This document shows, piece after piece, positions 4,437 to 20,910 of a stretch of 64,000 nucleotides of DNA (position 1 is the stretch's first letter; every line of letters begins with the position of its first letter). Source of the stretch: Acidimicrobiaceae bacterium (lineage in GTDB: Bacteria; Actinomycetota; Acidimicrobiia; Acidimicrobiales; Aldehydirespiratoraceae); the NCBI GenBank assembly GCA_028820455.1, contig JAPPJC010000049.1, positions 39,168 through 103,167 on the forward strand, written 5' to 3'. Under the pieces are notes generated by a model. That model was not told where the DNA came from and did not search any database. It was given only the letters and a program-made list of their open reading frames with translations. Position numbers and translations under genes: made by a program.

Positions 4437-4575
4437 CAGTCTCTCAGGGTTATCCGACGGGGTTTATACTTCTAGTTTTGCGGGTAAACACTACTGGTGA
4501 ATCTGTATTGATAACACAACTTTGCTATGAATGCGCGATTTATTGATGAGGCTGCTGCTATTGTGGATTGTTAAG

Positions 4576-5835
4576 ATGACGTACAAGCGTTATAAGGGCT
4601 GGATTGGCAATAAATTAGGTCTGGGTTTTCGTTTCGGCTTGGTTGTTGCTGTAGCTGCTAGTGGTGCGGTTGTTGGTGCTGACATGGCTGCTAGGGTTGG
4701 TGTGTCACAGCAGCTGTTGGGGGTCGTTGGTGTTGATAGGCCATCGCAGCTGTTGGCGGGTTCTGAGGTTGGTTTGCAGGTAGGTTCGGGTGGTGTGGTG
4801 GAATTCTCAGGTAGGGCTGATGGTGAATCTTTGGGCGTGGGAAGGAACTTTGCGCATCGGGGTGATGGCCTAGCACCAGTTTGGCCTTTCCGTGGAGTTG
4901 TGGATTCCGGGAGGGCTGATGATGGGGGGTTCGTGTTGCGGTTTTGGAGCATCGAATCCGGTGGGGTTTATGATGTGCCACTAGGAGCTATGTCACAGAG
5001 CGAACCGTATTGGTATTCTGATCGGGAGTATTCCGATGATCACTCTTATGCTGGTGATGTCCTGTATGCTAGCGAGGAGTTCGTGATTACTCAATTAAGT
5101 AACAGACTATCTCCTCTTAACGAGGATTGGACTCCTCATAGAGAGGAACGGACTAGGTGGTGGTGGATTGTTGTTCCGTGGGGTGATGAGGCGTACCCTG
5201 TTTTGTGGCCTGAAGTTCTTGTGGAATCTGAGTTGAGTCCAGAACGATTATCACAGGCTGAGGGTTTTGAAGTGTCTTTTGTCGAAGATCTTCATCGTGG
5301 CAGTGTGTTGCGTGTTGTCACACCACCCGAGGAAGCTTACTACGACTTGGATTACAGTTGGGATGTGTCGAGTCACACAGCAGGCACTGATGAGTATTAT
5401 GCGGCGTATCACCGGTCTTTTCATGTTCTGTTAGAGTTGAGCGAACCGCCGTCTGATCCTGTGGATTATTCTGATTATGAGTCTGAGGATAGTCCTTTTG
5501 GTGCCTTGGCGTACGATAGGTACATAACGTGGTTGAGGGAAGCTCCTTATGTTCGGTTTGATGGTACTGACGGCTACTATTATGGTATCACGATTATGGT
5601 GGCTCCAGATTTAGAGGATGCGACCGCTAGGGATTCGTGGGGTTTTGTTTTCGCTGGGGATACTGGTGAGGTTGTTAGTTGTCGCAGAGTGTTCAGCACT
5701 GCTGGAGCTCTGCTGGTGAAACCCGAGGGCTGGTCGGATCTTGTCGACCGTTTCGTGTTGCCTGAAGCCTTTTCAGGCTCGGATTGTGTGGGTACCGGAG
5801 AACTGCATAACCTGTCATCGGGTGAGGTGTCATGA
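4576..5835 (+). CDS. Family C paralog C2 (long subtype)
   Basis: ORF 4531..5835; ATG 4576 precedes TM segment FGLVVAVAASGAVVG. APVWPFRGVV, VPWGDEAYP, GTDGYYYG, AGDTGEVVSC. Confidence 0.75.
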   Translation: MTYKRYKGWIGNKLGLGFRFGLVVAVAASGAVVGADMAARVGVSQQLLGVVGVDRPSQLLAGSEVGLQVGSGGVVEFSGRADGESLGVGRNFAHRGDGLAPVWPFRGVVDSGRADDGGFVLRFWSIESGGVYDVPLGAMSQSEPYWYSDREYSDDHSYAGDVLYASEEFVITQLSNRLSPLNEDWTPHREERTRWWWIVVPWGDEAYPVLWPEVLVESELSPERLSQAEGFEVSFVEDLHRGSVLRVVTPPEEAYYDLDYSWDVSSHTAGTDEYYAAYHRSFHVLLELSEPPSDPVDYSDYESEDSPFGALAYDRYITWLREAPYVRFDGTDGYYYGITIMVAPDLEDATARDSWGFVFAGDTGEVVSCRRVFSTAGALLVKPEGWSDLVDRFVLPEAFSGSDCVGTGELHNLSSGEVS

Positions 5836-5953
5836 CCATACAGCTGTTCTGTTAGCACTGTATTTGGTTATGTGGCTGTTTGGTATCTGAACACGAGCAC
5901 GAACAGTACAGGCTGGACTACGGTTGCTATAACCACCTTTTGGTTAAGGCTGA

Positions 5954-6981
5954 TTGAGACACGGAGGTAAACGTATGGAAGAATGCAGCTATGATGATGC
6001 TCCAAGCTACGCGGACAGGTATCGGCGAGTTGGAAGTGTCTACCGTCATAGTAATGGTTCTATTTTAAGTCAAATCTTCTCTTTAGGGAATAAAAACCTA
6101 ACGGTAGACGTTCGGCCAGTAGTAGATTGGGCGGACACAAGAATTAATGACAAAATAACTTCAAAGCCGGAATGCAATCTTGATCTGGGGCAATTGGGGC
6201 AGGATATAACAAAGGCTAAGAGGAAAGGCAGAAATCCGTATTTGTTCGGTGGCCCATATAATGCGAACTATAAGTTCGATATTCATCCTGATATGGTGGC
6301 ACCGTTGAATAGTGCTGTTGTGACTATCGATTATTTTGCTCGGGTTTATGGTGACAACTATGGAAGACTCAAGGTGATCGGTCAGGGTGGCACGATAAGA
6401 AATCGTACGGGCTCTGATAGTTTTCATTATCATGGTAAGGCTATTGATATTTGGTGGTTGGGTTGGGAGAACCAGCAACAAGGCGGCACTGTGGTGCATA
6501 CCGCGTCTCGTCCGTGTAATGGTGCAGGTGAGGTGTCTTCAAGTTTAACAGCCCACCGTCGCCTAGTAGCGGTAGAAGCTGGACTGCGTAAATGGTTCGG
6601 CTACGTTCTGAATCGGAATATCGCTGGACATCACAATCATTTTCATGTTGACAATGGCTGTCTTGTGGCGTTGAGGGTTGATAATGAGCCTGAGGGATTG
6701 CCAATCCTGAAACACCAGATCGACCGGTTCGTTCGTGCCACTATTTTTTGCAGGACTGCATAAACGCATTTACGGATGTGGAAATAGACTATGATGGGAT
6801 ATGGGGGTCTCAGTCGGATCGGGGTTATAAAGCACTGCTGTCTGATTTTGGTATGGAGTGCTTGCACCCTGCTAAGTATGTGAGTCATTACATGCTGTTT
6901 TTGGATTATGTTATGATGCATGGTTTCGCTGACGCTCCTGCTGGTACGTATCGTTGGGGTGACGGTGCGCTGGTATTGTAA
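5954..6981 (+). pseudogene. Family B paralog B2, apparent frameshift
   Basis: ORFs 5954..6763 and 6748..6981 together cover a full B protein (FHYHGKAID, HHNHFHVDNGC, then HYFLQDCINAF...HYMLFLDYVMMHGFADAPAGTYRWGD). The frame switch maps to GGG run 6694-6696. It may be a homopolymer sequencing error. Confidence 0.7.
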
Positions 6982-7010
6982 CGGGTCAAGTTCTGTTAGT
7001 AGATGAATCG

Positions 7011-8050
7011 GTGGTAGTGGTGGGTAGTTATTTCGCAGCTGTATCTGTTGTTGTGGTATTTTCTGTTGGTGTAAGTGGTGCTGGGTTGGGAGACGTAGAA
7101 GATGTTGAGGACGGTGTGTCTGTAATATCAGCGGGTAGTGCTGTGGGGAACTTGTAGTACAGGGTGGTTCTGGGGTTACGGTTGGTCGGACTCCGGTTTG
7201 GCCGTTTCGTGGTATCGTGAAGTATGGTCTTGATGATGAGGGTGAGTCCGAGTATCCCGATTATTATGAGTGGAGACCTTTGGATTTGTTGTTTAGTGGT
7301 GAGCATAATGTGTTGCAGTATTGGCATACTGACACGGGTGAGATCACTGAGGTGCGGTTGGGGCCATTGCTCGGTTGTGAGCTGCAGATAGTGCCATTTG
7401 GTAGTGCTGTCGTGGTGTACGATAGTAGTGGCATGCTTGATCCGTCGCCTTTTTTTGGGTTCGTGCAGTATGGAGTGCCGTGGGGTGATGAGGCGTACCC
7501 GTTGGTTCGTGGGGTTGGTGTTGGTAGTGGCATGGATTCTGATGAGCGTTCGGTGCAGCAGTCGTTTCTGTTGGGCAAGTTGGCTGTATCGTCTGTCGGG
7601 GAACTTCTTCGTGTGTCAACACCACAACAGGATGCGTACTACGACACTTATGTCAATGCTAGGATCGGGTTGATGCTGGCGGATGCTCCGCATATTAGTG
7701 AGCTTGAACCTGAAAATGATGGTGAGTCGTGGTTTTGGCCTAGTGCTGACGTTATTGGTACTGATGGTTTTTACTACGGTGTTGGTGAGATTTATAACGA
7801 ACCGGCGTGGTGTCCGGGTGCGTATGGTTTTGTTGTGGCTGGTGATACTGGTGAGGTGGTGGCTTGCGGTAGTTTTAGGGGTTTGGATTCTGTTGGTTTG
7901 GGGGGTGTGGCGTTTGTGTTGCCTGAGGGTTCGCCGGGTTTTGTTGATAGTTTTGCTGTGCCTCAGGGGGTTCCACCTGGTGGTTGCAAGAATTTAGATT
8001 TGGAAACGTTGCGGGTGCCACAGACTGCTGGTGTGGATGTGACCCGGTGA
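7011..8050 (+). pseudogene. Family C paralog C3, apparent frameshift between TM anchor and body
   Basis: The TM-like N-terminus (GSYFAAVSVVVVFSVGVSG) reads in frame 3 from GTG 7011 to TAG 7155-7157. The body (TPVWPFRGIVKYG... to 8050) is in frame 2 and opens only after TAG 7136-7138. The switch is at G-run 7145-7148. The tracked ORF is 7217..8050. Confidence 0.6.
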
Positions 8051-9126
8051 TGTTGAGTGTGCTGCGATGGTGGGTGGTGGTGTGGGTGCTGGTGGTGTGT
8101 GTTGCTTGTGCCAACAGTGATACCCCAGAGGATGCTCCCCAGTCTTCAGAGGCTGTGACAGGGGTGGCAGGGTCGCAGTCGGTGGAGTCTTCTGCTGATG
8201 ATCCTGTGAGTGACAGGCGAGACGAAAGTGATGATACCGCATTCACGAACTCGAATTCAAACGGCCAGGACATAGAACAACTCGGAGAGAGATCACCCGA
8301 GGAGGAAACATCACTGGTGGGTGAAACATCCCCGGCGACTACGATCCAGACTACGACAACTACAACGTTTGCACCCTTAGATAAAGAATACCCATCTTTC
8401 GGTGCAGACGGTGCTGATACCGCACCGCGGTGGCCGTTTCGGGGTTTGGTGCAGCTCTGGTACAACACGTATAGTTTCATGGGTGAACTGGGTTGGTCGT
8501 TGCGGTATTGGAGTTGGGACACATCCGCTGAGATATACCCCCAAGTACCGTTACCAGGCCTGGAAATTGAATGTATGGGCAGAATCGGCATGGTCACACA
8601 CGGTGAGCTTGGCATAGAGATAGGTGGCATAACAGACACTGCTAGTAGCACGTATTGGATCCCTTGGGGTGACACCGCAGCAAAAGTCGACACAGCTTCT
8701 GAGATGCTGCTAACACAAATACGTGATAGGTCTTCAAGTGTTGAGGTGGCAACCGAGGGAGACTGGGTGCACCTGACCACCGGCACCCAGCAACAGTCAT
8801 ACGAGATACGCGATCCTATGCGACCCGATGGTGACCGATGGACAGTGCAAGCCCGCCATGATGGTGAACTGTTCCTGCTAACAGTGCACCCGGCGCACTT
8901 GCCGTGCTATTCTGGTGTCACTTGGGTGTCACTAGCCGCAACCGGTGAGTTCGTCACGTGTGGTGCTAACACCGCGGCCACACTGTTTGTCTCCCCGGAG
9001 CCACCCGCTGGTGAGCTGATACTACCAGATCCTGATACTATGGGCACATACCTGTCATGTGCACCACAACTCGACCTCACCAACCTCCCATTCACACAAG
9101 ACCGGCAACTCACACCACCACACTGA
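8050..9126 (+). CDS. Family A paralog A3 (predicted lipoprotein)
   Basis: ORF 7984..9126. ATG 8050 overlaps the C3 stop by 1 nt (TGATG) and gives MLSVLRWWVVVWVLVVCVACANS. PRWPFRGLVQLW, RYWSWD, conserved C-terminus. Confidence 0.8.
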   Translation: MLSVLRWWVVVWVLVVCVACANSDTPEDAPQSSEAVTGVAGSQSVESSADDPVSDRRDESDDTAFTNSNSNGQDIEQLGERSPEEETSLVGETSPATTIQTTTTTTFAPLDKEYPSFGADGADTAPRWPFRGLVQLWYNTYSFMGELGWSLRYWSWDTSAEIYPQVPLPGLEIECMGRIGMVTHGELGIEIGGITDTASSTYWIPWGDTAAKVDTASEMLLTQIRDRSSSVEVATEGDWVHLTTGTQQQSYEIRDPMRPDGDRWTVQARHDGELFLLTVHPAHLPCYSGVTWVSLAATGEFVTCGANTAATLFVSPEPPAGELILPDPDTMGTYLSCAPQLDLTNLPFTQDRQLTPPH

Positions 9127-9306
9127 TCATCACACTGAGCAGCCATTCAGACGCTACAGCGGTCGCAGGCAAACCGCGAGTACACAGTAGACTCTAGGCT
9201 ATTACCTAGGGCATTGAAGAAACCACCCCGTGAGTGTTTGACTTCGGGAATAACGGATACTTGGATTCCGGTGGATTTGGGACTGAGGAACCTGATATGG
9301 GTTGGT

Positions 9307-10437
9307 TCAACTATTGGGAATCTTGAGACCGCTGATGTCTAGTGGAGCCTGGTTGCATTGATCGTTGTCCCAGTCTGTGACCGTCTCAGGAAAAGCGATA
9401 GTATCAACCTGTGCTAGCACTTCAGGCTGACTTATCAAGAGTGCTCCACCTCTCGACCAACCGCAGGCTACCAGTTCTCCGGTCTCAATCGCAAAAATAA
9501 ACCCGTTCTCATCTGGGCATGCTGTTTCACTGGAGACAACCCTAACACCCCAGTGATAGCCATCAGTGCCATCCAACAGAACAATAGGAGTTGGAAAGTC
9601 CACAACCCCGTCGGATTCCTGGGGCTTCTCAGGGTCGTGATCAGTTAACGAAAGCCCATACGCACCAACAGAGTAATACTTTTGTAATGTTCCAACCGAT
9701 ACACGAACAACGCTAAAAACACCATCGGAGACAATGGATATCGTTCCCGCCTCACCAAACGAAATAGACTCCGGGCGACCAGCAGTATCTTGTGATCCGA
9801 CGACTATAGGGTAGGCCTCATCACCCCACGGCACACTATAAATAACCCGAGGCCAGTTATCCAAATTAAACTGTACAGCGTCTTCGTTGGCAACTGGAAG
9901 ACCAGGACACCCTCCGATCGGCCACGAACTATGTATCAGTCGCACCTCACTGTACCCACCGGTGTCAGCATTCCAGTATTGCAATACACCAAACTCACGC
10001 GGCTCCGGTACGCTGCCGTAGCTCACAACACCCGAAAACGGCCATCGCGGTGCCAACCACTCAAGACTCTCAACCTCTCCTGACACGGTAGAGTATACTT
10101 CTTCTGACGTGATGCGCATGTCTGGCACCATGTGCGTGTCGCTGTTGTGGATCAACGTAACAGGCCTAGACCAGCTAGGTACAGCATCTCGTCGCGCCAT
10201 CTGTCCCGAATGTATTCGATTCAGACCCACCACCATCTGTCCTGGACGCACCCCAGTATGTATGGTTGGAGCATTATGCCGCCCATGATGGGAACTGCTT
10301 TCTAATTCTCTATCAACGCTTGAACTAGCCGTCAACGGTACAATCAATAACACAATCAACGTACTGGTGGATCGGCGAGCAGCTCCGCTTCTTTCTTTAC
10401 GCCAACGCCGCGTTTCACAGCACCAGGGCATTGTCAC
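9307..10437 (-). CDS. Family C paralog C4
   Basis: 376-aa ORF. APRWPFSGVV, LQYWNADTG, VPWGDEAYP, GTDGYHWG, ETGELVACGW. Confidence 0.8.
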   Translation of the reverse strand: MTMPWCCETRRWRKERSGAARRSTSTLIVLLIVPLTASSSVDRELESSSHHGRHNAPTIHTGVRPGQMVVGLNRIHSGQMARRDAVPSWSRPVTLIHNSDTHMVPDMRITSEEVYSTVSGEVESLEWLAPRWPFSGVVSYGSVPEPREFGVLQYWNADTGGYSEVRLIHSSWPIGGCPGLPVANEDAVQFNLDNWPRVIYSVPWGDEAYPIVVGSQDTAGRPESISFGEAGTISIVSDGVFSVVRVSVGTLQKYYSVGAYGLSLTDHDPEKPQESDGVVDFPTPIVLLDGTDGYHWGVRVVSSETACPDENGFIFAIETGELVACGWSRGGALLISQPEVLAQVDTIAFPETVTDWDNDQCNQAPLDISGLKIPNS

Positions 10438-10690
10438 CCCAACGATAAGTACCAGCAGGCGCGTCGGCGAACCCGTGCATCATCATGTAATCTCAAAACA
10501 GCATGTAGTGGTTGATGCACCGAACTGGGTCTAGGCATTCCATCCCTAAATCCGATAGCAGGGTCTTGTATCCGTGATCCGACTCGTCATTCCACACGCC
10601 GCTGTAAGCTGGTTGCTCATCAGCGTGTGTGTCCATGAGTGCAGCCCTGCCGAACCCACCAACCAGAACCATGAACCGGTTATTAGATCA
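10425..10690 (-). pseudogene. Family B C-terminal fragment with in-frame stop
   Basis: The reverse strand reads ...YSGVWNDESDHGYKTLLSDLGMECLDPVRCINHYMLF*DYMMMHGFADAPAGTYRWGDNALVL*. TGA replaces the conserved Leu codon. No catalytic half lies upstream. The 3' end overlaps the C4 start. Confidence 0.75.
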
Positions 10691-10951
10691 GGTTTCATGT
10701 TACACCAGCTCTTTTGGTTGTTGATTTTGTGATAAAAATCATGGGCTATTCGGTTGTGAAGTTGTTTACCTGGCTGTTCAGTATACACAATACAACTGGT
10801 TTAGCGTTACTGGTGTGCTCACCGTTGTCAGGATGTGCACTACGATTGGATTGATGCGGAATGTGTGATGTGGGCGATATTGAACCACCTATCAGTTATC
10901 TTGAAGTTACGCTATTGAAGAGAAGATTACCGAAAGGAGAATAGACGTACC

Positions 10952-11881
10952 ATGACTCCTCCTGAAGATGTCACATCCAAAGAATATGACGTGTGCTCTT
11001 ATAATCCACCCGCACCTCCTCAAGGGACAAACCTAGTGGCGAATTATCCAAGCCATACTTTTCCGTCAGTTGGTAGCGGCTCAGTTGAAGTAAAGTTCCG
11101 GTACTCTTCGACATATAATTCGCAAGATTGGGCGGAGCAGAAGAAGATTAATCTAGATGCTTCTATGGAGCCTCTTTTGGATAGTTTTGCTAACAATATG
11201 AGTTACTTTTCTAGACTATATGGAAATAATGGTTATGGAAACATATCTTGGATTGGTCATATCGGTGGTGCACCCGGTACTCGCAGGTATACCTATCATA
11301 ATGTTGGTAGAGCACTTGATGTTACTTGGATTCAATGGACTGGTGGTAATGCGTCTAATCCACAGGTCGCTGAAAGCGAGGTATTTGACTCGAATGGCCA
11401 CTGGAGGCCAACGACTCATCGACGTTTGGTAGCTGTGGAAGCTGGATTACGGAAATGGTTCGGCTATGTATTGAACCGCTACATCGGTTGTATTCTTCCA
11501 CCTACGGAATGTAATGGGGAGCCTCTAGAGGGCCCGAGGAGTTCTCATCATAATCATTTTCATGTTGATAACGGGTGTCCTGTAGCTTTGAGAGTGGATC
11601 GAGAATCACGAATAAGATTAGATCGGACTATTCGGTCTTGTCATTATTTCATACAAGATTGTATTAACGCCTTCACAGATGTGGACGTGGACTATGACGG
11701 GACGTGGGACGCGCAAACAGATAGAGCCTATGAACACTTGTTATCCGATCTAGGGATGGAATGTTTGAATCCGATCAAGTTTATTAACCATTATATGTTG
11801 TTTTTGGATTATATCATGATGCATGGATTTGCGGATAAACCTGCTGGCACTTTTCGTTGGGGTGACAAAGCAATTTTATAA
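10952..11881 (+). CDS. Family B paralog B3 (LAS/M15-like peptidase)
   Basis: 309 aa. YHNVGRALD (H-x6-D), SHHNHFHVDNGCPVALR, YDGTWDAQTDRAYEHLLSDLG, HYMLFLDYIMMHGFADKPAGTFRWGD. No signal peptide. Confidence 0.85.
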   Translation: MTPPEDVTSKEYDVCSYNPPAPPQGTNLVANYPSHTFPSVGSGSVEVKFRYSSTYNSQDWAEQKKINLDASMEPLLDSFANNMSYFSRLYGNNGYGNISWIGHIGGAPGTRRYTYHNVGRALDVTWIQWTGGNASNPQVAESEVFDSNGHWRPTTHRRLVAVEAGLRKWFGYVLNRYIGCILPPTECNGEPLEGPRSSHHNHFHVDNGCPVALRVDRESRIRLDRTIRSCHYFIQDCINAFTDVDVDYDGTWDAQTDRAYEHLLSDLGMECLNPIKFINHYMLFLDYIMMHGFADKPAGTFRWGDKAIL

Positions 11882-11957
11882 ACGTAACCGGATTCGTGAG
11901 GGTGGAAACCCCGATGTCACACCACCAAAGTACATGTAGGATTGTAAGCTGGTTCGT

Positions 11958-12725
11958 ATGGGTAGACGTCGATACCGTATCGCACATCTCATTACTAGTG
12001 TCGTTGTCTACGTTGTGGTTGTAGTTTCTAGTGTAGTTGTTACATATGCAGCTGATTCGTCTTATACGCACAAATCGACATTGCAAGCACCGAGTTTGCC
12101 TTTTAGGGGGGTAATCGGCTACTACGATGGCACCGCCCCCGTCGCCTCCTACGACGTGGTCCCGTCAGTGGATCCGTATCCCCATCCAGGATTCGGTTTG
12201 CAATACTGGAATGCTAATGACCTATCTAGCACTTATGTCCCTCTAGGTGTTGATCATATGATTTGTGGTGGACATATCGAGGCCAGTTTCGATAGGCTCA
12301 AAGTCACATTCGTTGATTACAGATCTCTGGGTTATGTGATATTCCAGGTTCCGTGGGGCGATGACGCATATCCAATGTTCATTTCTGATCCCCCTGGTTG
12401 GCTCCCACCACCTACCGTACTTGGAGCAAGGGTGTCTGGCACGGACGGACACCACTACGGCTTTCATTATATTCCCGAAGAACCGGCATGCTCTGCGCAC
12501 AAAACCTACGTGGTAGACGGCATTACCGGAAAGTTAATCACTTGCGGCTGGAACCGTTTAGGCCCCATTTTAGTGAACTTTGATGAATCCTACGAACCCT
12601 CTAGCAGTATCAAGGACCCAGAGTTTCTGGTAACAAACCTACCCGAAGTCTACGATGATTCTTGCGATCGGTTCTTAGATTTGCGAGACTTGCCGCATAA
12701 CACGACGGGCGACTCCGCAGAATAA
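11958..12725 (+). CDS. Family C paralog C5 (short subtype)
   Basis: 255 aa. TM segment ITSVVVYVVVVVSSVVV. SLPFRGVIGY, LQYWNAN, VPWGDDAYP, GTDGHHYG, ITGKLITCGW. Confidence 0.8.
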   Translation: MGRRRYRIAHLITSVVVYVVVVVSSVVVTYAADSSYTHKSTLQAPSLPFRGVIGYYDGTAPVASYDVVPSVDPYPHPGFGLQYWNANDLSSTYVPLGVDHMICGGHIEASFDRLKVTFVDYRSLGYVIFQVPWGDDAYPMFISDPPGWLPPPTVLGARVSGTDGHHYGFHYIPEEPACSAHKTYVVDGITGKLITCGWNRLGPILVNFDESYEPSSSIKDPEFLVTNLPEVYDDSCDRFLDLRDLPHNTTGDSAE

Positions 12726-12803
12726 CACCTTCAAATATGCCAAGGGAAGGCTTGAACAACATAGCGTCTATAGCGGATTCTCAACACAGCAACCACAGAT
12801 CGG

Positions 12804-12960
12804 ATGTGCTCCCCCCCCCCCACTGATTGTAGGGCGAAGAAACAGTCACTGGAGGCTCCGAACAGTTCACATAAAAATCATTTTCATGTTGACGATGGGT
12901 GTCCAATTGCTTTGAGGGTGAAGCGGCGATCGAGAACGTTGCTAGAGTGTCAGGTGGGTT
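12804..12960 (+). pseudogene. Family B internal fragment (HxH region only)
   Basis: Reads PPPTDCRAKKQSLEAPNSSHKNHFHVDDGCPIALRVKRRSR, matching the PPTECNGEPLEGPRSSHHNHFHVDNGCPVALRV region of B3. The 5' boundary coincides with poly-C 12811-12821. Confidence 0.7.
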
Positions 12961-13464
12961 ATGATACGCTGTGGGAGAATATTAGTTGCTGTATTGTTGA
13001 TGATCCTTGCAACTATCAGTGCAGTCGGCTCTGAGGTTGGCTTAGAGGTTAACTCAGCAGCCAACATTAGCGTAGACGGCAAGCTAGTTCGTGGTATGCT
13101 TCTAGCTTCTGTGTCGACAACTGGCACGAGTGTAGACGGCAATGCGCAAGAACTAGAAGCTCTCAATGCGGTACAGGCGACGATCTCGTCTTTCGCGCCG
13201 GGCTTGACGAAGAACGTATCAATCGAAAGAAATGGACAAGCACCAGATTGGCCTTTCAGTGGTGTGATCAACTACGGACATTCTCTACAGTACTGGAACA
13301 TCGAAACAGGTCTTTTCAGTGAAGTGTCGCTAGGTAACAGCTCACTTTCATCAGGATGCAGTCCTGCATTATACGCGAACGATCGCTACTCTGAGGTTCA
13401 CTTTACAGGCGCACCAGATACGGTATTTCGAATACAGTCTTCAACAACCACCACAAACACATAA
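12961..13464 (+). pseudogene. Family C paralog C6, truncated (167 aa)
   Basis: Has the signal/TM segment (ILVAVLLMILATISAV), APDWPFSGVINYG and LQYWNIETG. It then diverges and stops, and lacks the VPWGD, GTDG and TGE..CG modules. Confidence 0.55.
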
Positions 13465-13507
13465 TACCTGAGAAATCCTAAGTCGTCGCCAAACGAGGAG
13501 CCGGGAT

Positions 13508-13674
13508 AGGTTGGTTCAACTCTTGGTAATCTTGAGGCTACCGCGGATTTAGAACTGAGGAACCTAGGTGTGGTTGGTTCAACCCTGGGGAATCTTTAGA
13601 GCACTGATGTCCAGCGGAGCCTGTTCGCAGTGATCGTTGATCCGGTCTGTGGCCGTCTCAGGAACTGAATTGAT
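13508..13674 (-). pseudogene. Two nested 3'-end remnants of a minus-strand family C gene
   Basis: Reverse strand 13674->13579 reads INSVPETATDRINDHCEQAPLDISALKIPQG*, compared with C4's IAFPETVTDWDNDQCNQAPLDISGLKIPNS*. A second short copy (LKITKS*) lies at 13508-13545. The flank resembles 9270-9330. Confidence 0.7.
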
Positions 13675-13828
13675 TGGGCAGCACCTTCGTTGCAACCGGA
13701 CCAACAGAACACTCCCCAATTGGCTATGAGTCGTGCTTCAATCGCATCACTTATTGCAGGATTGTGGTGCACGGGCTTGCCGGTAGAGTAAGTTATATGG
13801 TAAGCAAGAGTTATGAGTCTAGCCCGTT

Positions 13829-15217
13829 GTGGTGTGGTGGGTGGTTCTGGGTTTGCGTATAGGTTATTTGCTGGTTGTCATTGTAGGGTTTGTTGCAGTT
13901 ATAGGTGGCGCAGTCCTTGACATTGATGCAATACTGCAACCATCAGGAAGTTCTGGGGTTGATATTAGCGTACTACCACAGTCGCTGGGAGAACCTGAAG
14001 TTAGTCTGAACGCACCGCCGCAATTACTTTTGGGTAGTTCTAGGGTTGACTCGCAAGCGGGTTTGGGAGTTGTGGTGGGGTTCTCGGATAGCACCGATAG
14101 CGGGATTTCTGCCGAGGAGAACGATCCCGCGGTTGCGAGTGAAGGTTTGGCACCGGTTTGGCCTTTTCGTGGGATCATAGATTTCGGAAGGGCCGAAGAT
14201 GGTGAGTTTGTGTTACGGTTTTGGAACACTGAATCTGGTAGGATACATGATGTGCAGCTAGGGGCTGTGTTGGAGGGCGAACCGTGCTGGCATTCTACTT
14301 CTGCTTATTCTTCGCACTACGATTTTCGTGATCACGGCTCCGATATTTATGGTTATGCTTTGTATGCTACTGAGGAGTTCGTGCTGACACAGTTCGGTGA
14401 TAGCAGCTTACCAGTAGATAGTCATACTAGGTGGTCGGTTGTTGTTCCATGGGACGATCAGGCTTACCCGGTTGCGTGGCCTGAGGTTCTAGTGGGGTCT
14501 GAGTTTGGGTTAGGACAGCTACCACTGAGTGAGAACAACCCATCAAGCGGTAGACAGCGCGGGTTTGGATTGGGACAGTTGCCACTGGGTGAGGGTTTTG
14601 AGATGTCTTATATAGCCAACGGGCATTTCAACCCTAAAGGTGTGATAAGTGTTACCACACCAGATGGGCAGGCCTACTACGACTGGGATGCAGAGTTCTT
14701 GGATTATGATCTTTATACGGATGAATATCCTAAGGAGATCGATGCGGAAGTTAATTCTGAGTGTGAAAGAATCTACGTGGAAACCCTTATTGGTATTGAG
14801 TTGGAGTTGGGTGAACCGCCTCCTAATCCTGTTGATTATTCTCAGTTCTCGTCTAGTGATGATCCCTACGAACACGATGATTACAATGAGTGGTTGAGAG
14901 GTGCTCCTAAGGCTCGGTTTGACGGCACTGATGGCTATCATTACGGCTTCACGATCATTTTTCCAAGTTGGGAGGCTGGTCCAGGCGTTTCGCAGCCGTG
15001 GAGTTTTGTTGTTGCTGGTGATACTGGTGAAGTTATCGCCTGCCGTAAAATGGACGGTGCTGCTGGGCCTTTGCTGGTGAAACCTGAGGACTGGCCGGGT
15101 CTTATTGATCGTTTTGTGCCTCCTGAAGTGTTTTCAGGTTCGGTGTTTTCAGGTTCAACGCTTTCTGGTTCAGGCTGTGCTAGTGCTGGCGAGTTGCTCA
15201 ATCTGCCATCTGGGTGA
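13829..15217 (+). CDS. Family C paralog C7 (long subtype)
   Basis: 462 aa. TM segment IGYLLVVIVGFVAVIGGAVL. APVWPFRGII, VPWDDQAYP, GTDGYHYG, AGDTGEVIAC. C-terminal VFSGSVFSGSTLSGS repeats. Confidence 0.8.
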   Translation: MVWWVVLGLRIGYLLVVIVGFVAVIGGAVLDIDAILQPSGSSGVDISVLPQSLGEPEVSLNAPPQLLLGSSRVDSQAGLGVVVGFSDSTDSGISAEENDPAVASEGLAPVWPFRGIIDFGRAEDGEFVLRFWNTESGRIHDVQLGAVLEGEPCWHSTSAYSSHYDFRDHGSDIYGYALYATEEFVLTQFGDSSLPVDSHTRWSVVVPWDDQAYPVAWPEVLVGSEFGLGQLPLSENNPSSGRQRGFGLGQLPLGEGFEMSYIANGHFNPKGVISVTTPDGQAYYDWDAEFLDYDLYTDEYPKEIDAEVNSECERIYVETLIGIELELGEPPPNPVDYSQFSSSDDPYEHDDYNEWLRGAPKARFDGTDGYHYGFTIIFPSWEAGPGVSQPWSFVVAGDTGEVIACRKMDGAAGPLLVKPEDWPGLIDRFVPPEVFSGSVFSGSTLSGSGCASAGELLNLPSG

Positions 15218-15380
15218 AGGGTGATGGTACGCTTAATTCTGCTGGTGGTGCCTTCTCAGGTGCTGTTTGATGTCTAGTATTGTTGCATCGGAAGATGCGC
15301 AGTTCTTAATGTTTCTTAATGTTGGCATTGCCAGCACATTTGGGATTTGAACGTTGATGTAAACAGCGCGGGGTTGGATC

Positions 15381-16376
15381 TTGGTTGCCGTGTTCACCGG
15401 TTTGCAAAGATTGGCTAAGACAGAAAGGGATGATATTTTGGCAGGATGTTTGGATACTCCAAGTTATGAAGAACGCTATCAGTCAGACCATCCCAGCTTG
15501 ACCAGTATATTCTCTGCGGGAAACGACAATCTGACAGTCAACTTTCGACGGGTGAAAGACTGGGGCGACACGAATCCCTGCAATCTTGAGAGAACAGATC
15601 TGACACCTGCTCAGGAGCAAGATATAACACTTGCCCGCAGGGAAGGAAGACAGGTGTCTTTGTTCGGTAGGCTATACCATGCGGGTTATAAGTTTACGAT
15701 TCATCGTGATATGGTGGTGCCGCTGAATGGTGCTGTTGTGACTATCGACTATTTTGCTCGGGTTTATGGTGACAACTATGGAAGACTCAAAGTGATCGGC
15801 CAGGGTGGAACATTACGAGACATTATGACCGGTCCTAGTTTTCATTATCATGGTAAGGCTATCGATATTTGGTGGGTGGGTTGGGAGAACCAGCAGCAGG
15901 GTGGGTCTGTGGTGCATACTGCTGCGCGTCCGTGTAATGGTGCGGATGAGGTGTCTTCAGGTTTGACAGCTCACCGTCGTCTTGTTGCGGTGGAAGCGGG
16001 CTTGCGCAAATAGTTCGGCATTGTGCTCAACCGAAACATCAGAGATCACGGTGATCATTTTCATGTCGATATTGGCTGTCCTGTAGCGTTGAGAGTCAAA
16101 ACCGCAGACAACCCAGGTGGTCACACAGCAGCCAATTTTTTCCTACAGGATTGCATTAACGCGTTCACGGATATGGAAGTAGACTATAACGGTAAATGGA
16201 ACAGTAAGTCGAAACGTGGTTTTAAGACTTTGTTGTCTGATTTGGGTATGGAGTGCTTGGACCCGACTACATGCATCAACCACTATATGCTGTTCCTTGA
16301 TTATATTATGATGCACGGTTTTGCTGACAAACCCGCGGGTAAATACCGGTGGGGTGACAGTGCGCTGGCACTGTGA
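15381..16376 (+). pseudogene. Family B paralog B4, in-frame nonsense codon
   Basis: ORFs 15381..16013 and 16023..16376 share one frame, split by TAG 16011-16013 where other copies have TGG (GLRKWFG). FHYHGKAID and GDHFHVDIGC are present. Confidence 0.75.
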
Positions 16377-16480
16377 TGGTATAAGCTCCAGTGGTGTTTA
16401 CATGGGAGGATCCTTTTACACGGAGCATCATGATGGATGGTTGGTTATACCACTTGAAGTGACGGGGTTGGTGGTTTGTA

Positions 16481-17275
16481 ATGCGCTTAGGTGTTTTATT
16501 GGTTGTTGTGTGCTTGTCGGCCGGTTTAGCTTCGGTTAGCACCTGGACTTACAGCGGTGCTGCTGTTTCTGCCTTGTATGGTGGTTTGATCTTGGTGACT
16601 TCCGGTGATAGTGCTAACGGAGATTTCCCGGAGGGGGTGGAGGTGCTACCCGCACCGGATTTACTTTGGGAGGCAGCTCCGGTCTGGCCGTTCCGGGGTA
16701 TGGTTGGATTCTACGGCGGTGCTGTCGGTTTTGATTGGGTGTACGATCGTGGTGGTGGGTTCGGTTTGCAGTATAGGGACACTGATGGTGCTTCAATCAC
16801 AGCTGTAAAGATGGGTCCTGGAGACAGTCACGGTATGTGTGGGCCCGGGCAGATGTACGCTGGCGAGGATGGAGTAGAGATTGAATACATAAGATATCAC
16901 GTGTTCGGGGGAGTTGATCGTGTTCGTTTTATGGTGCCGTGGGGTGACTATGCGTACCCGCAGTTCTTACCCACTGAGAATGTTCGTCGGGTATCATCTA
17001 CCAAAGCTGGCACTGATGGAACCCACTACGGCTTCCGCTTCATACCAGATGAACCAGCATGTGGGCCGCAAATAACCTATATCGTTTTTGCTGAAACAGG
17101 AGATTTGCGTGACTGTGGCTGGGCCAATTTGGGGCCAGTGCTGGTAACACCAGAGGATATCTCGAACACAGAGTCAGAACCCGAACTCTCTCCAACAGTG
17201 TTAGAAGATAATCTATCGCACTGTAGCGACAAGGCCCTAGACCTACGTGACCTATCCAAACATAAAAAACAATAA
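16481..17275 (+). CDS. Family C paralog C8 (short subtype)
   Basis: 264 aa. Signal MRLGVLLVVVCLSAGLASV. APVWPFRGMV, LQYRDTDG, VPWGDYAYP, GTDGTHYG, ETGDLRDCGW. Confidence 0.8.
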   Translation: MRLGVLLVVVCLSAGLASVSTWTYSGAAVSALYGGLILVTSGDSANGDFPEGVEVLPAPDLLWEAAPVWPFRGMVGFYGGAVGFDWVYDRGGGFGLQYRDTDGASITAVKMGPGDSHGMCGPGQMYAGEDGVEIEYIRYHVFGGVDRVRFMVPWGDYAYPQFLPTENVRRVSSTKAGTDGTHYGFRFIPDEPACGPQITYIVFAETGDLRDCGWANLGPVLVTPEDISNTESEPELSPTVLEDNLSHCSDKALDLRDLSKHKKQ

Positions 17276-17568
17276 TGAGCACACTCGCTGGCATCAGTAC
17301 ACCAACACCGCATGTCGCGCGAATGCTGCCACAACTACCTGAAGACACCAAAGAGGTCGGTGGTGGTATCGCATGCCGCGCGAATGCTGCCACAACATGA
17401 CAACGCTCGTTCTTAGCTGTAAGGTTGCATTTGCCGGTCACTCCATCGGTTCCAGGCAGGACTCTGTGGTGAACAGAACAAAACCGCGGGCGGAATTGTG
17501 ATAGGCAAAACCGTGGAGAACAGAAGTAGGTATTGGAGGTGAGTGGATTGTTGTTTGAAAGCCAGATA

Positions 17569-18648
17569 ATGCGCTGGTGTGTGCTGGTTGTGTGTGTGCT
17601 ATTGGTGTGTGTTAGTTGTGGGGGTGGTGAAGAAACCTCCGAAGAGGATCACGACCGCTCAGAGGCCACGCTCCCTCACACCCCCTCAGACGGGTCTGAA
17701 ACATCGGCTACAACAACCGCAAACACTGAGAAGCGAGACGCTGGTTTGGGGTTGACAGGTCCGGCGCGGGAGGCTACTACTTCTACGACTGAGCCACCGA
17801 GGGTTACCACGACTACGACTACTCCCAAGTTAGAGCAAGAGTACCCACTTTTTGTGGAGGGACCGGCTCCGCAGTGGCCGTTCCGGGGCATCGTGCAACT
17901 GTGGTCCTCGTCGGATTACCCTTTGGGATGGGACGATTGGGTGCTGCGGTATTGGAGCTGGGACGAATCAGCAGAGTCCTATCCTAAGGAGCTGTTACCC
18001 GCAGAAGCTCGAGAATACCTCGATCGGCGAGAAGCCCACAAAGCTGAAGCCTACTCTGAGGTACCGGTAACCGGCTTGGAGATCGAATGCTTAGGCCGGA
18101 TAATCATGGTCGTCGACACTGAGCGCGGCATTGAAATCGGTGGTATTGATGGTGCCGCGAATAGTGCGTTCCGAATCCCGTGGGGTGGTACCGCACAAAG
18201 AATTGACACACCGTCGGAGGAACTCATAGAATGGGAGCGTGAACGTCCCTCGAATGTGGCTGTGCGCGTCGAAGGTGATCAGATCCACATCGATACCGGC
18301 ACTCAGCAGCACTCTTATGCAATGCATGACCCTATCAGATCAAACGGCCCGCGCTGGGCGGCTCAAGCCCGCTATGATGGTGAACTCTTCCTGCTCATGG
18401 TGTATCCAGCGCACCTGCCCTGTTACACTGGTGTCACTTGGATATCACTAGCCGAAACCGGTGAGTTCGTCACGTGTGGTGCCAACACCGCGGCCACACT
18501 GTTTGTCGCTCCAGAACCACCCGCCGGTGAGCTGATACTACCGGATCCTGACACTATGGGAACTTATCTGTCATGCGCGCCTCAACTAAACCTCACCCAC
18601 CTTCCATTCACGCAAGACCGACAACTTGTCACTGGTTTGTCTCGTTGA
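17569..18648 (+). CDS. Family A paralog A4 (predicted lipoprotein)
   Basis: ORF 17533..18648. ATG 17569 gives MRWCVLVVCVLLVCVSCGGG. Thr-rich linker. APQWPFRGIVQLW, RYWSWD, HLPCYTGVTW, TCGAN. Confidence 0.8.
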   Translation: MRWCVLVVCVLLVCVSCGGGEETSEEDHDRSEATLPHTPSDGSETSATTTANTEKRDAGLGLTGPAREATTSTTEPPRVTTTTTTPKLEQEYPLFVEGPAPQWPFRGIVQLWSSSDYPLGWDDWVLRYWSWDESAESYPKELLPAEAREYLDRREAHKAEAYSEVPVTGLEIECLGRIIMVVDTERGIEIGGIDGAANSAFRIPWGGTAQRIDTPSEELIEWERERPSNVAVRVEGDQIHIDTGTQQHSYAMHDPIRSNGPRWAAQARYDGELFLLMVYPAHLPCYTGVTWISLAETGEFVTCGANTAATLFVAPEPPAGELILPDPDTMGTYLSCAPQLNLTHLPFTQDRQLVTGLSR

Positions 18649-19744
18649 GGTTCATGGGGGCTTCGTCGCAGCGTGTGTTCGGTTCCGTGTCGGGGAATGC
18701 GACGGCCTCAACTTGGGTTGAAGTCTCTGAGGGAGCGATCAGGAATGCGCCGCCTCTTGTCCATCCGCAGGCTACCATCTCACCTGTTTCAATGTCGAAG
18801 ATGAAGTTCCACTCCAGCGGGCATGCTGCTTCACCAACGATTCTAAGGCCCCAGTGGTATCCGTCGGTGCCGTCCAAAATAATGAAACTATCACCCTCAT
18901 CTGTAGCCTCGGGCGCGGTTTCAGGATTCGTGGGGGACAGACCGAGCGTGCTCGCAAGGTAGTACTTCTCTGAGGAACCCGATACAACCTTCACCTTGCT
19001 GGACACAATGGATATCTCGCCTGCTTGACCGAACTGCAAACGTGTCGACCGAGTATCGATTGTGTCGGTTGATCTGACAAACTGCGGGTAGGCATGATCT
19101 CCCCAAGGAACCCTAAGAATCGTCAAGTACGCACCTTCGAAGCTGAATTCCACAGCGTTGTGATCCGCGACAGGCCAACTGGGGCATCCGCCACCTCTTG
19201 AGTTGGGAGAGGCCAGCTGCACCTCACTGTAAGCGTTCGTCTCGATGTTCCAATACTGCATGACTGGGAACCCAGCATCGCTTGTCGCATAGTTCACCAC
19301 ACCCCGGAACGGCCATGGTGGTGCCGCCCCTTCAACAGAAGCCTCTAGCCCAGTTCCCTGATCCTCCATCGTTGACGCTTGATCGTTTACTGAGATATGC
19401 GCGACAGACTCGGATCTGCTTGGTGCGGCGTATCTCATGAGCGGGTGAGACTTCATACCGGCATGGGCAGAAGTAGTACGATGAAGAGCAACACCATCGG
19501 GCACGCCACCATCCGGGGGCCGGTCCAACGGTTGCGCGTTCTGCTGTAAGAGCTGATCATACCAGCGGTCGGTGTTGACTCCGGTATTGTATGAGAATTG
19601 GCTTGTATCGGTACCAGTGTCCGCTCCGTTGGCCAGCATGAAGATCAGCAAGCACAGAAATCCCAACAACCCAAACGGAAGCCCCAATCTAGTAGAGCGA
19701 CTAGGGCGACATGCTCTATACTCTCTCTTTTGGTTTGATGGCAT
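18629..19744 (-). CDS. Family C paralog C9
   Basis: 371 aa. APPWPFRGVV, MQYWNIETN, VPWGDHAYP, GTDGYHWG, ETGEMVACGW. Its 3' end overlaps convergent A4 by 20 nt. Confidence 0.8.
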   Translation of the reverse strand: MPSNQKREYRACRPSRSTRLGLPFGLLGFLCLLIFMLANGADTGTDTSQFSYNTGVNTDRWYDQLLQQNAQPLDRPPDGGVPDGVALHRTTSAHAGMKSHPLMRYAAPSRSESVAHISVNDQASTMEDQGTGLEASVEGAAPPWPFRGVVNYATSDAGFPVMQYWNIETNAYSEVQLASPNSRGGGCPSWPVADHNAVEFSFEGAYLTILRVPWGDHAYPQFVRSTDTIDTRSTRLQFGQAGEISIVSSKVKVVSGSSEKYYLASTLGLSPTNPETAPEATDEGDSFIILDGTDGYHWGLRIVGEAACPLEWNFIFDIETGEMVACGWTRGGAFLIAPSETSTQVEAVAFPDTEPNTRCDEAPMNLNETNQ

Positions 19745-20846: not shown

Positions 20847-20910
20847 TGCTGTTTTCCTGTTGGATAAGCATGAACAGCACTACACATCACTTCACACAAC
20901 CAGTGCATGG

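What the first reader, a model, noticed from the sequence alone, without database searches (positions are those of the whole stretch)
10952..12725. Family B: LAS/M15-type zinc peptidase signature, PG-binding-like tail, no export signal, coupled to a membrane-anchored partner
Every intact B copy has H-x6-D (for example YHNVGRALD, FHYHGKALD) and HFHVD about 50-60 residues later. This is the metal-ligand pattern of LAS enzymes (M15 D,D-/L,D-peptidases, DUF882-type). A Y-DG-W-x5-GY-x-LLSD(L/F)G segment resembling PG_binding_1 follows. No copy has a signal peptide, whereas the flanking A and C genes all do. All copies keep a Cys 3-6 residues from the likely start (MTGCLDSP, MSVSDCTYDPP, YDVCSYNPP). 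A leaderless cell-wall peptidase present in many diverged copies is endolysin-like or toxin-like in architecture, yet no phage genes are present.
Basis: partly seen in the sequence, partly recalled or inferred. Interest (0 to 1): 0.75.

Follow-up and report, generated by a model that had tools for sequence, protein, structure and literature searches.

The report
Leaderless zinc cell-wall peptidase gene array
The flagged gene most likely encodes an uncatalogued zinc peptidase of the cell-wall-cutting LAS type; it has no export signal, and in related genomes it always follows a partner protein that carries a twin-arginine (Tat) export signal, which suggests a new way of exporting and controlling a wall-cutting enzyme.

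Summary
B (10952-11881) has invariant H116-x6-D123 and H199-x2-H202-x-H204, no hydrophobic N-terminus, and a three-helix tail. C (11958-12725) has an N-terminal transmembrane helix and an all-beta ectodomain.

B itself hits no Pfam, NCBIfam, PHROG or PADLOC model. Relatives reach Pfam Extensin-like_C. A family profile best matches the Streptomyces albus zinc DD-carboxypeptidase (1LBU), with catalytic motifs and PG-binding domain aligned. Remote relatives are fused to amidase, glucosaminidase, SleB-like and M15 domains. Foldseek gave no significant LAS match, so the fold is unconfirmed.

New context: in 20 of 20 loci inspected, a leaderless B directly follows X, a ~350-aa protein with a canonical twin-arginine signal. 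All 13 family members judged to carry their own signal peptide have an RR motif. I infer, without direct test, that B is exported folded through Tat by riding on X.

In sponge-associated Acidimicrobiales the operon is giant surface protein-X-B-C-A. This genome adds about 27 kb of old, diverged B/C/A cassettes: 5 intact B, 2 pseudogenes, 2 fragments. No holin or phage genes are present.

The role is unresolved: secreted lysin with self-protection, or the cell's own wall remodelling.

The parts
10932..10939 (+). Ribosome-binding site GAAAGGAG, 12 nt upstream of the B start codon
   Evidence: Read directly from the sequence. It supports the 309-aa start over NCBI's 227-aa call (P0001).
10952..11881 (+). 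B4: intact 309-aa leaderless LAS-type zinc peptidase gene (the flagged copy)
   Evidence: ORF. 68 homologues, all annotated hypothetical. AlphaFold model has pLDDT 90.6 and pTM 0.91.
10952..11146 (+). N-terminal variable region (aa 1-65), containing Cys15 (codon 10994-10996) in the motif C-x-Y-x-P-P
   Evidence: Mean pairwise identity is 18-22%, against 54-72% for the tail. The Cys column is 83% conserved. There is no hydrophobic segment.
11147..11596 (+). Catalytic LAS-like core (aa 66-215). Secondary-structure order: long helix, strand, H116, strand carrying D123, two helices, strand, strand carrying H202/H204
11297..11320 (+). H116-N-V-G-R-A-L-D123, the first zinc-ligand motif (T-x-H-x-x-G-x-A-x-D)
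   Evidence: Invariant H and D in A1 and A3. Aligns to SRHMYGHAAD of 1LBU, SHSRGSAID of VanX, SYHTKGQAMD of MepK and SNHSRGTAID of DdpX.
11546..11569 (+). H199-H-N-H202-F-H204-V-D206, containing the H-x-H motif plus a third invariant His
   Evidence: Invariant in A1 and A3. Aligns to HNDHTHV of 1LBU and HRAHMHV of MepA.
11624..11878 (+). C-terminal three-helix tail (aa 225-309), PG_binding_1-like; together with the second half of the core, one of the two most conserved parts of B
   Evidence: Helices at 225-241, 254-266 and 278-294. The family profile aligns to PG_binding_1 domains of 1LBU (i-E 0.0068), 7RUM and 4XXT. Identity among window paralogues is 72%. Pfam PG_binding_1 itself does not hit.
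11958..12725 (+). C: 255-aa partner with a transmembrane helix (aa 3-31, nt 11964-12050) and an all-beta ectodomain. It carries the family motifs LPFRG, LQYWN, VPWGDDAYP, TDG and TG..CG, plus two invariant Cys
   Evidence: Foldseek gives only weak beta-propeller-like matches.
10433..10636 (-). Fragment of a B tail (pseudogene remnant), adjacent to C copy 9307-10437(-)
   Evidence: tblastn at 60% identity; HMM hit.
12807..13464 (+). B fragment (12807-12947, HFHVD region only) followed by a truncated C (12961-13464)
1294..2286 (+). B1, intact; the likely start is ATG 1339 (MSVSDC...). Its stop overlaps the start of C 2283-3317 by 4 nt
5954..6978 (+). B2 pseudogene (frameshift near 6718)
15381..16376 (+). 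B6 pseudogene (TGG->TAG at 16011-16013, in the conserved LRKWFG)
20911..21897 (-). B7, intact, followed on the minus strand by C copies 19926-20846 and 18629-19744
25034..26023 (+). B8, intact (MTGCLDSP...), followed by lipoprotein A 26092-27150
12..27150 (.). Whole array: 8 B loci and 17 A/C-family genes with nothing else, including a threefold higher-order repeat of about 9.4-9.6 kb at 75-88% nucleotide identity. It continues upstream of the window as G'-X-B0-C0-A0-A0'
   Evidence: For the upstream part, L008 is 100% identical to the window from L008 position 8663.

Best explanation
What B is. B is most likely a zinc-dependent peptidoglycan peptidase of the LAS type. It has a divergent catalytic domain of the Extensin-like_C / M15A kind, followed by a PG_binding_1-like three-helix domain. 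This domain order is the reverse of that in the Streptomyces albus DD-carboxypeptidase.

How it is probably exported (inferred). B is made without a signal peptide. I infer that it folds and takes up zinc in the cytoplasm and is carried across the membrane by the Tat pathway as a passenger of X. X is a ~350-aa protein with a canonical twin-arginine signal, encoded directly upstream of B in every complete operon. In this genome X occurs once, about 16 kb upstream of the flagged copy and outside the window.

What happens outside the cell (inferred). The conserved tail docks B on the wall, and the LAS site cuts stem peptides or cross-links. The cognate membrane-tethered proteins C (transmembrane anchor) and A (lipoprotein), which have beta-rich ectodomains, bind B. 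The likeliest contact is B's hypervariable N-terminal region. They restrain or position B at the producer's own surface.

What the array is (most likely reading). The ~27-kb array is a long-maintained repertoire of diverged enzyme/partner cassettes. It most likely encodes secreted bacteriolysins with self-protection proteins, used among the dense bacteria of a sponge.

Shown versus inferred. Shown: the motifs, homology to LAS families, absence of a signal peptide, synteny and the amplification. Inferred: Tat hitch-hiking, B-C/A binding, and the antagonistic role.
For: Enzyme identity:
- H, D and H-x2-H-x-H are invariant.
- Pfam Extensin-like_C hits in relatives cover the motif region.
- 1LBU is the best PDB match and VanX also matches. 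MepK, DdpX and MepA align on the motifs.
- Remote relatives are fused to Amidase_3, Hydrolase_2, Glucosaminidase, and Peptidase_M15_3 plus PG_binding_1.

Export:
- There is no hydrophobic N-terminus in 54 of 54 family proteins.
- X has nearly invariant RRxFL and lies directly upstream of B in 17 Acidimicrobiales loci and 3 remote loci, with gaps of -4 to 90 nt.
- Of 180 family proteins of at least 200 aa, 17 have an N-terminal hydrophobic segment. Thirteen of these are preceded by RR, and I did not read the other four as plain Sec signals.
- Tat export of signal-less partners is established (PMC4273604 and PMC10924467).
- ChiX is a precedent for a zinc LAS peptidoglycan hydrolase that folds in the cytoplasm and needs a partner to be exported (PMC5778951).

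Partners:
- B-C start/stop overlaps are frequent.
- A and C have signal or anchor sequences and conserved Cys pairs.
- B is most variable at its N-terminus and A/C are highly variable.

Repertoire:
- There are 5 intact B copies, 2 pseudogenes, 2 fragments and about 20 A/C genes. Synonymous sites are saturated and dN/dS is 0.17-0.56, so the paralogues are old and under purifying selection.
Against: - Foldseek found no significant LAS-fold match for the confident B model.
- The flagged copy hits no Pfam model, and the profile-to-PDB E-values are modest.
- No X is adjacent to the extra cassettes or anywhere in the window. One X would therefore have to serve all B paralogues.
- No X-B fusion protein was found.
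- No physical interaction, zinc binding or activity was tested.
- No delivery apparatus or toxin-trafficking domain was seen.
- Two conserved partner types (C and A) are more than a simple immunity model needs.
- In remote relatives the genes downstream of X-B are an ECF sigma factor and a putative anti-sigma protein, which suggests a housekeeping envelope role.
- All Acidimicrobiales operons start with a giant surface protein, which fits a role in wall remodelling for the cell itself.
Confidence: 0.45

Rival explanations
1. The enzyme and export route are the same, but the job is remodelling of the cell's own wall. B locally opens peptidoglycan so that the giant surface protein G (700-3768 aa), or a neighbouring Tad-type pilus, can be inserted or anchored. 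C and A act as localisers or activators rather than inhibitors.
For: - G-X-B-C-A synteny holds in all 12 genome loci and in L004-L008.
- Tad-like genes (T2SSE ATPase, SAF-domain protein) lie divergently next to G in two genomes.
- Remote X-B pairs sit next to an ECF sigma factor and a putative anti-sigma protein.
- ChiX is a precedent for a LAS hydrolase dedicated to protein secretion (PMC5778951).
Against: - The extra cassettes in the window, and the remote relatives, lack G.
- A housekeeping wall-opener gives no reason to maintain 5 intact diverged copies and about 20 diverged partners under purifying selection.
Confidence: 0.3
2. B is a cytoplasmic enzyme that is never exported. It would act as a VanX/DdpX-like dipeptidase or trim wall precursors, and its link to C and A would be only regulatory or coincidental.
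For: - B has no signal peptide.
- VanX and DdpX are LAS enzymes, and the family profile touches them.
Against: - B has a PG_binding_1-like tail.
- Relatives carry Tat signals.
- Relatives are fused to wall hydrolases.
- B is invariably coupled to a Tat-signal protein and to exported partners.
Confidence: 0.08
3. B is a domesticated phage endolysin, or part of a holin/endolysin-type secretion system like ChiWX, and is exported by a holin.
For: - Its architecture is leaderless and endolysin-like.
- Some remote relatives, such as P0144 and P0194, match phage endolysin families through their other domains.
Against: - No small multi-transmembrane ORF exists in the array.
- Positions 1-27 kb contain only A/B/C-family genes.
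- B, C, A and X hit no PHROG family.
- C has a single transmembrane helix and a 200-aa ectodomain, unlike a holin.
Confidence: 0.05
4. B is a catalytically dead binding or regulatory protein, like the degenerate LytM factors, rather than a hydrolase.
For: - Foldseek similarity to active LAS enzymes is weak.
- Inactive LAS proteins exist (PMC8416486, listed).
Against: - Every metal and catalytic residue is invariant across 85 diverse sequences.
- The paralogues are under purifying selection.
Confidence: 0.05

Closest known systems
Streptomyces albus G zinc D-Ala-D-Ala carboxypeptidase (PDB 1LBU, MEROPS M15A)
   Same: It is the best PDB sequence match of the family profile (E=4.2e-4). It shares S-x-H-x-x-G-x-A-x-D and H-x-x-H-x-H, and it also combines a PG_binding_1-type three-helix domain with the LAS catalytic domain. 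It too comes from an actinobacterium.
   Different: The domain order is swapped: the binding domain is N-terminal in 1LBU and C-terminal in B. B has an extra ~65-110-aa variable N-terminal region with a conserved Cys. B has no signal peptide. Identity is too low for Pfam M15 models or Foldseek to detect the relationship.
Pfam PF06904 Extensin-like_C
   Same: Relatives of B reach the gathering score over the region from H-x6-D to HxH. Examples are P0063 at 27.6 bits and P0144 at 67.4 bits. From memory, this family belongs to Pfam's Peptidase_MD (LAS) clan.
   Different: The flagged copy does not hit the model, and only the C-terminal ~70 of its 176 positions ever match. I found no functional literature on the family.
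Serratia marcescens ChiX (LAS L-Ala-D-Glu endopeptidase of the ChiWXYZ secretion operon)
   Same: It is a zinc LAS peptidoglycan hydrolase with no signal peptide and a non-phage role. It is thought to fold and load zinc in the cytoplasm, and it needs a partner protein to reach the wall (PMC5778951).
   Different: ChiX's partner is a three-transmembrane holin. Here no holin exists, and the conserved neighbour is a soluble Tat-signal protein.
Tat 'hitch-hiker' complexes, such as PaoABC and hydrogenase small/large subunits; from memory also Streptomyces tyrosinase MelC2 carried by MelC1
   Same: A signal-less, metal-containing protein is encoded next to a partner that bears the only twin-arginine signal (PMC4273604 and PMC10924467).
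   Different: The known passengers I am aware of (from memory) are mostly redox or cofactor enzymes, and I know of none that is a peptidoglycan hydrolase. The X-B complex is inferred only from synteny.
Bacteriolysins and wall-targeting effector/immunity pairs, such as lysostaphin and T6SS Tse1/Tsi1 (from memory)
   Same: A secreted peptidoglycan hydrolase is encoded next to an exported self-protection gene, in diversified multi-copy repertoires that include orphan and decayed copies.
   Different: There is no recognised delivery domain or secretion apparatus. Two partner types (C and A) occur per enzyme. Toxicity and protection are untested.

Membership tests
LAS metallopeptidase superfamily | Zinc-ligand motif H-x(3-6)-D ... 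H (PMC4087270) | tested here: met
   H116-x6-D123 and H204 are invariant in 54 and in 85 sequences.
LAS metallopeptidase superfamily | Second motif H-x-H, whose first His is catalytic (PMC4087270) | tested here: met
   H202-F-H204 is invariant. It aligns to HTH of 1LBU and HMH of MepA.
LAS metallopeptidase superfamily | LAS fold with the three ligands clustered around one zinc | tested here: inconclusive
   The model is confident (pLDDT 90.6), and its order of helices and strands places the H/D/H residues on or beside consecutive strands. Foldseek gave no hit at E<=1e-3; Shh-N was at E=1.7 and phage M15 at E~1.5.
LAS metallopeptidase superfamily | Zinc-dependent hydrolysis of a peptidoglycan peptide bond | not testable with these tools
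   This needs purified protein and muropeptide analysis.
Pfam PF06904 Extensin-like_C | HMM score at or above the gathering threshold (25.4 bits) | tested here: not met
   The flagged B has no hit at E<=1. Window paralogue B7 scores 19.2 bits and B8 scores 14.1. Relatives P0063, P0064 and P0052 score 27.6, 25.8 and 25.4. The link is therefore homology by transitivity, not direct membership.
MEROPS M15A (1LBU type) | Significant sequence or structure match over the catalytic domain | tested here: inconclusive
   The whole-sequence E-value is 4.2e-4, but it is driven by the binding-domain segment. The catalytic motifs align only as weak extra segments.
PG_binding_1 (PF01471) | Three-helix domain that matches the Pfam model | tested here: inconclusive
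   There is no Pfam hit. The family profile aligns to PG_binding_1 domains of 1LBU (i-E 0.0068), 7RUM and 4XXT, and three helices are predicted.
Phage endolysin / holin-endolysin secretion | Adjacent holin and phage or lysis-cassette context | tested here: not met
   There is no multi-transmembrane small ORF and no PHROG hit. The array contains only A/B/C-family genes.
Tat hitch-hiker pair | A signal-less passenger encoded next to a partner that carries a twin-arginine signal | tested here: met
   X has nearly invariant RRxFL and lies directly upstream of B in 20 of 20 loci inspected. The flagged copy itself has no adjacent X.
Tat hitch-hiker pair | Physical X-B complex and Tat-dependent export of B | not testable with these tools
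   No complex prediction or experiment was available.
Effector/immunity (bacteriolysin) pair | Enzyme gene tightly linked to an exported cognate protein, in diversified copies | tested here: met
   B-C overlaps, signal or anchor sequences on A/C, and a multi-copy diverged array.
Effector/immunity (bacteriolysin) pair | Toxicity of the enzyme and specific neutralisation by the partner | not testable with these tools
   This needs expression and killing assays.
T7SS LXG/WXG toxins | N-terminal LXG/WXG100 trafficking domain | tested here: not met
   No Pfam or NCBIfam hit in the N-terminal region.

The most novel reading that the evidence does not exclude
X-B is a previously undescribed export module in which a peptidoglycan hydrolase crosses the membrane by riding on a Tat-signal carrier. 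In sponge-symbiont Acidimicrobiales the module has been built into a new, secretion-system-independent polymorphic lysin/immunity system: giant surface protein-X-B-C-A plus arrays of diverged B-C-A cassettes. The conserved N-proximal Cys may act as a latency ('cysteine-switch'-like) ligand of the catalytic zinc until B is exported.
Probability: 0.3. Interest if true: 0.85.

Novelty: new variant of a known kind. Interest (0 to 1): 0.65.

Why it matters
Cells must move wall-cutting enzymes out safely and keep them from destroying the producer. To my knowledge, a zinc peptidoglycan peptidase that is systematically signal-less yet always paired with a Tat-signal protein would be the first wall-hydrolase passenger of Tat hitch-hiking. 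That idea is directly testable with an RR->KK change in X or a tatC deletion.

The family is absent from NCBIfam, PHROGs and PADLOC, and B itself hits no Pfam model. It is rare: 355 clusters at 50% identity among 1.84 billion protein representatives. Here it is amplified into a large, old array of paralogues in an uncultured sponge symbiont.

If the cassettes are lysin/immunity pairs, they would add a new mechanism of interbacterial competition for single-membrane Actinomycetota in host-associated communities. They would also be a source of new lytic enzymes and inhibitors.

Tried and rejected
- Pfam, NCBIfam, PADLOC and PHROGs on B, C, A and X returned nothing usable.
- Foldseek of the full-length B model against PDB and BFVD returned only kinase noise, with LAS proteins at sub-threshold rank.
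- A profile of close B homologues against PDB sequences gave spurious hits. Only the broadened profile A3 reached LAS entries.
- hhalign against single E. coli MepK, MepA and DdpX sequences gave the correct motifs but low probabilities.
- The C model (pLDDT 74.5) gave weak beta-propeller-like matches on Foldseek, and the A/C profile found nothing in PDB sequences.
- X is unrelated to A/C by hhalign. X against PDB gave spurious S11 hits and signal-peptide matches.
- No Rosetta-stone X-B fusion was found. P0101 has a Tat signal and a different N-terminal domain.
- dN/dS among paralogues is uninformative for positive selection because synonymous sites are saturated, and gene-wide values are 0.17-0.56.
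- The holin hypothesis was rejected because no small multi-transmembrane ORF exists.
- The promoter and terminator scan showed no enrichment over shuffled sequence.
- Literature searches found nothing on Poriferisodalis or on the function of PF06904.
- The lookup of P0011 failed. I reached the upstream region through P0026 instead.
Full report
**What is at the coordinates**

Window 10952-11881(+) is a 309-aa ORF, called B here. Window 11958-12725(+) is a 255-aa ORF, called C. B's ATG is preceded by GAAAGGAG at a 12-nt spacing. Homologues from other genomes cover the whole N-terminus (95% query coverage). The 309-aa reading is therefore preferable to the 227-aa NCBI call (P0001).

The window comes from an Acidimicrobiaceae MAG. 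The closest relatives are in Candidatus Poriferisodalis and other Acidimicrobiales.

- B carries H116NVGRALD123 and H199HNH202FH204VD206. These H, D, H, H, H columns are invariant in an alignment of 54 close homologues (A1). They are the only invariant columns in an alignment of 85 sequences that reaches remote relatives (A3).
- The Y-DG-W...GY..LLSDLG tail is conserved.
- No B-family protein has a hydrophobic N-terminus. Every full-length A/C paralogue has one.
The D-to-HFHVD distance is 56-79 residues, and 79 in this copy, which has a 20-aa insert. The N-proximal Cys is residue 15 here and lies 4-12 residues from the likely start elsewhere; it is 83% conserved. Two of the copies are pseudogenes: B2 has a frameshift, and B6 has TGG->TAG in LRKWFG. 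A and C are one superfamily with shared motifs and two invariant Cys.

**What B is**

The flagged copy hits nothing in Pfam, NCBIfam, PADLOC or PHROGs. The evidence comes from the family as a whole.

- 26 of 54 family members hit Pfam Extensin-like_C at E<=1. Three reach the gathering score. The match spans the stretch from H-x6-D to HxH.
- The only other weak hits are to LAS-type families: Peptidase_M15_4, M74, DUF5715 and HH_signal.
- An exhaustive profile search of 1.84 billion representative proteins found only 355 clusters at E<=1e-3, so the family is small.
- Remote members are fused to Amidase_3, SleB-type Hydrolase_2, Glucosaminidase, and Peptidase_M15_3 plus PG_binding_1. This domain company points to peptidoglycan as the substrate.
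- The broadened profile's best PDB sequence is 1LBU, the Streptomyces albus zinc DD-carboxypeptidase (M15A), at E=4.2e-4. The tail aligns to its PG_binding_1 domain (i-E 0.0068). SaHgeGrAfDl aligns to SRHMYGHAADL and HedHiHvD aligns to HNDHTHVA, though these two segments are individually far from significant (i-E ~2e3). VanX follows on the first motif, and two PG_binding_1 endolysins match the tail.
- hhalign puts the same motifs on E. coli MepK (E=0.0049), DdpX (0.022) and MepA (0.19).
- These are the two motifs that define LAS enzymes (PMC4087270).
- The AlphaFold model is confident (pLDDT 90.6, pTM 0.91). Its element order is helix, strand, H116, D123 strand, helices, strand, H202/H204 strand, then three helices. 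This is what a LAS core plus a three-helix binding domain would give.
- Foldseek found no significant match in PDB or BFVD. Sonic hedgehog N-domain and phage M15 peptidases appear only at E~1.5.

I therefore rate 'B works like a LAS zinc peptidoglycan peptidase' at about 0.8. Formal fold confirmation remains open.

**The partner C**

C has a predicted transmembrane helix (aa 3-31) and a 12-strand all-beta ectodomain (pLDDT 74.5). Its matches to beta-propeller-like proteins are weak, and it has no sequence relative in the PDB. C-type proteins are transmembrane-anchored. A-type proteins have lipobox-like cysteines.

**Context outside the finding**

Positions 12-27150 contain only B and A/C genes: 8 B loci and 17 A/C genes. 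They are organised partly as a threefold higher-order repeat of ~9.5 kb at 75-88% nucleotide identity. Synonymous sites between paralogues are saturated, and gene-wide dN/dS is 0.17-0.56. The copies are therefore old and kept by selection.

A sister scaffold identical to the window shows what lies upstream. In order, it holds an 869-aa repeat protein (G'), a 376-aa protein (X), then B0-C0-A0-A0'.

The order G-X-B-C-A recurs in all 12 loci found among 185,579 species-representative genomes and in five further contigs. G is a giant protein of up to 3768 aa with PPC-like repeats.

X is unrelated to A/C, has no known domain, and carries a canonical twin-arginine motif (S/T-R-R-x-F-L) that is nearly invariant.

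**The Tat connection**

In three loci of remote relatives (E about 1e-25 to 1e-30), the leaderless B-like gene is again directly preceded by a 331-351-aa protein with TRRDFL, SRRRFV or SRRALL. The downstream genes differ: two lipoproteins in one locus, and an ECF sigma factor (followed in L023 by a putative anti-sigma membrane protein) in the other two.

Of 180 family proteins of at least 200 aa, 17 have an N-terminal hydrophobic segment. Thirteen of these are preceded by RR. I did not read the other four as plain Sec signals.

Tat exports folded, metal-loaded proteins and can carry signal-less partners (PMC4273604 and PMC10924467). ChiX shows that a zinc LAS wall hydrolase can fold in the cytoplasm and depend on a partner for export (PMC5778951).

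My inference is that X is the Tat carrier for B (probability about 0.5). A weakness is that the extra cassettes, including the flagged one, have no X of their own. One X would have to serve all the paralogues. This is plausible because the tail and the second half of the core are the most conserved parts of B (72% and 68% identity among the window paralogues, against 18% for the N-terminus).

**Role**

Several features fit a repertoire of secreted lysins with cognate self-protection proteins:
- the hypervariable B N-terminus and very variable A/C partners;
- tight B-C coupling;
- an excess of A/C genes over B genes;
- decayed copies and island-like location.

Other features fit self-directed wall remodelling:
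- the invariable giant surface protein in Acidimicrobiales operons;
- the ECF sigma neighbours of remote X-B pairs.

I rate the remaining options low: a cytoplasmic VanX-like role, a holin/endolysin system (no holin found), and a catalytically dead protein.

**Novelty**

The enzyme class is known. New here are this family, its reversed domain order relative to M15A, the constant X-B pairing, the G-X-B-C-A operon, and the ~27-kb amplification. I found no literature on any of these.

Noticed in passing
L018 535-6558 (NZ_OZ241975.1, complete Ca. Poriferisodalis chromosome); protein P0081: A 2007-aa in-frame fusion joins the giant protein G (78% identical to the G of L004) to the last ~190 aa of a B protein, starting just before the H-x6-D motif. 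X and the B N-terminus are missing, and C and A follow. It is either a deletion derivative of an L019-type locus or a genuine 'toxin-tipped' giant protein.
   Followed up: partly
Remote B relatives P0093-P0206 (not in the window): Many ~250-aa relatives start M-x-C and end in Cys. An N-terminal Cys and a C-terminal Cys co-occur (32 of 86 have both; Fisher p=1.4e-5). This suggests a disulfide or a shared metal site joining the two termini. The window's B family keeps only the N-terminal Cys.
   Followed up: partly
window 27318-64000: The rest of the window is a defence island. It holds a YgjP-like peptidase; type I restriction-modification genes (hsdR 28240-31749, hsdS 57465-58682, hsdM 58630-61035); an N6/N4 methylase (34796-35989); a UvrD-like helicase (36773-39022); an AAA_14/DUF4143 protein (42400-43674); a GTPase-associated system (GAP1-N1/EAD1, DO-GTPase1/2, GASH, and a PNP_UDP_1-EAD1 effector, 47556-53980); an IS1595 transposase (56248-56994); and GmrSD (61437-63287).
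   Followed up: partly
window 2001-8000, 14001-16000 and 24001-28000: These stretches of the array have very strong strand composition bias (GC skew up to +0.38, AT skew down to -0.32). The bias generates long spurious antisense ORFs, for example 7875-8786(-) and 3212-4096(-).
   Followed up: no
L004 806-1843(-); L007 1-2834(-): In two Poriferisodalis genomes the G-X-B-C-A operon is divergently adjacent to Tad/Flp-pilus-like genes (SAF-domain CpaB-like protein, T2SSE ATPase).
   Followed up: no
window 10952 (annotation of P0001): The public annotation starts this gene 82 codons too late (227 aa). The ribosome-binding site and the conserved N-terminus support 309 aa.
   Followed up: yes
window 11486-11545 (B aa 179-198): A 20-aa insert (GCILPPTECNGEPLEGPRSS) lies between the core helix/strand and the HxH motif. 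It occurs in this copy and in a subset of homologues that share a conserved 'EGP.S.H'. It marks a subfamily, and its function is unknown.
   Followed up: no
L017 (JAPOXV010000025.1, labelled Gammaproteobacteria MAG): A complete X-B-C-A set sits on a 4.6-kb contig binned as Gammaproteobacteria. This is probably a binning error, but horizontal transfer is not excluded.
   Followed up: no
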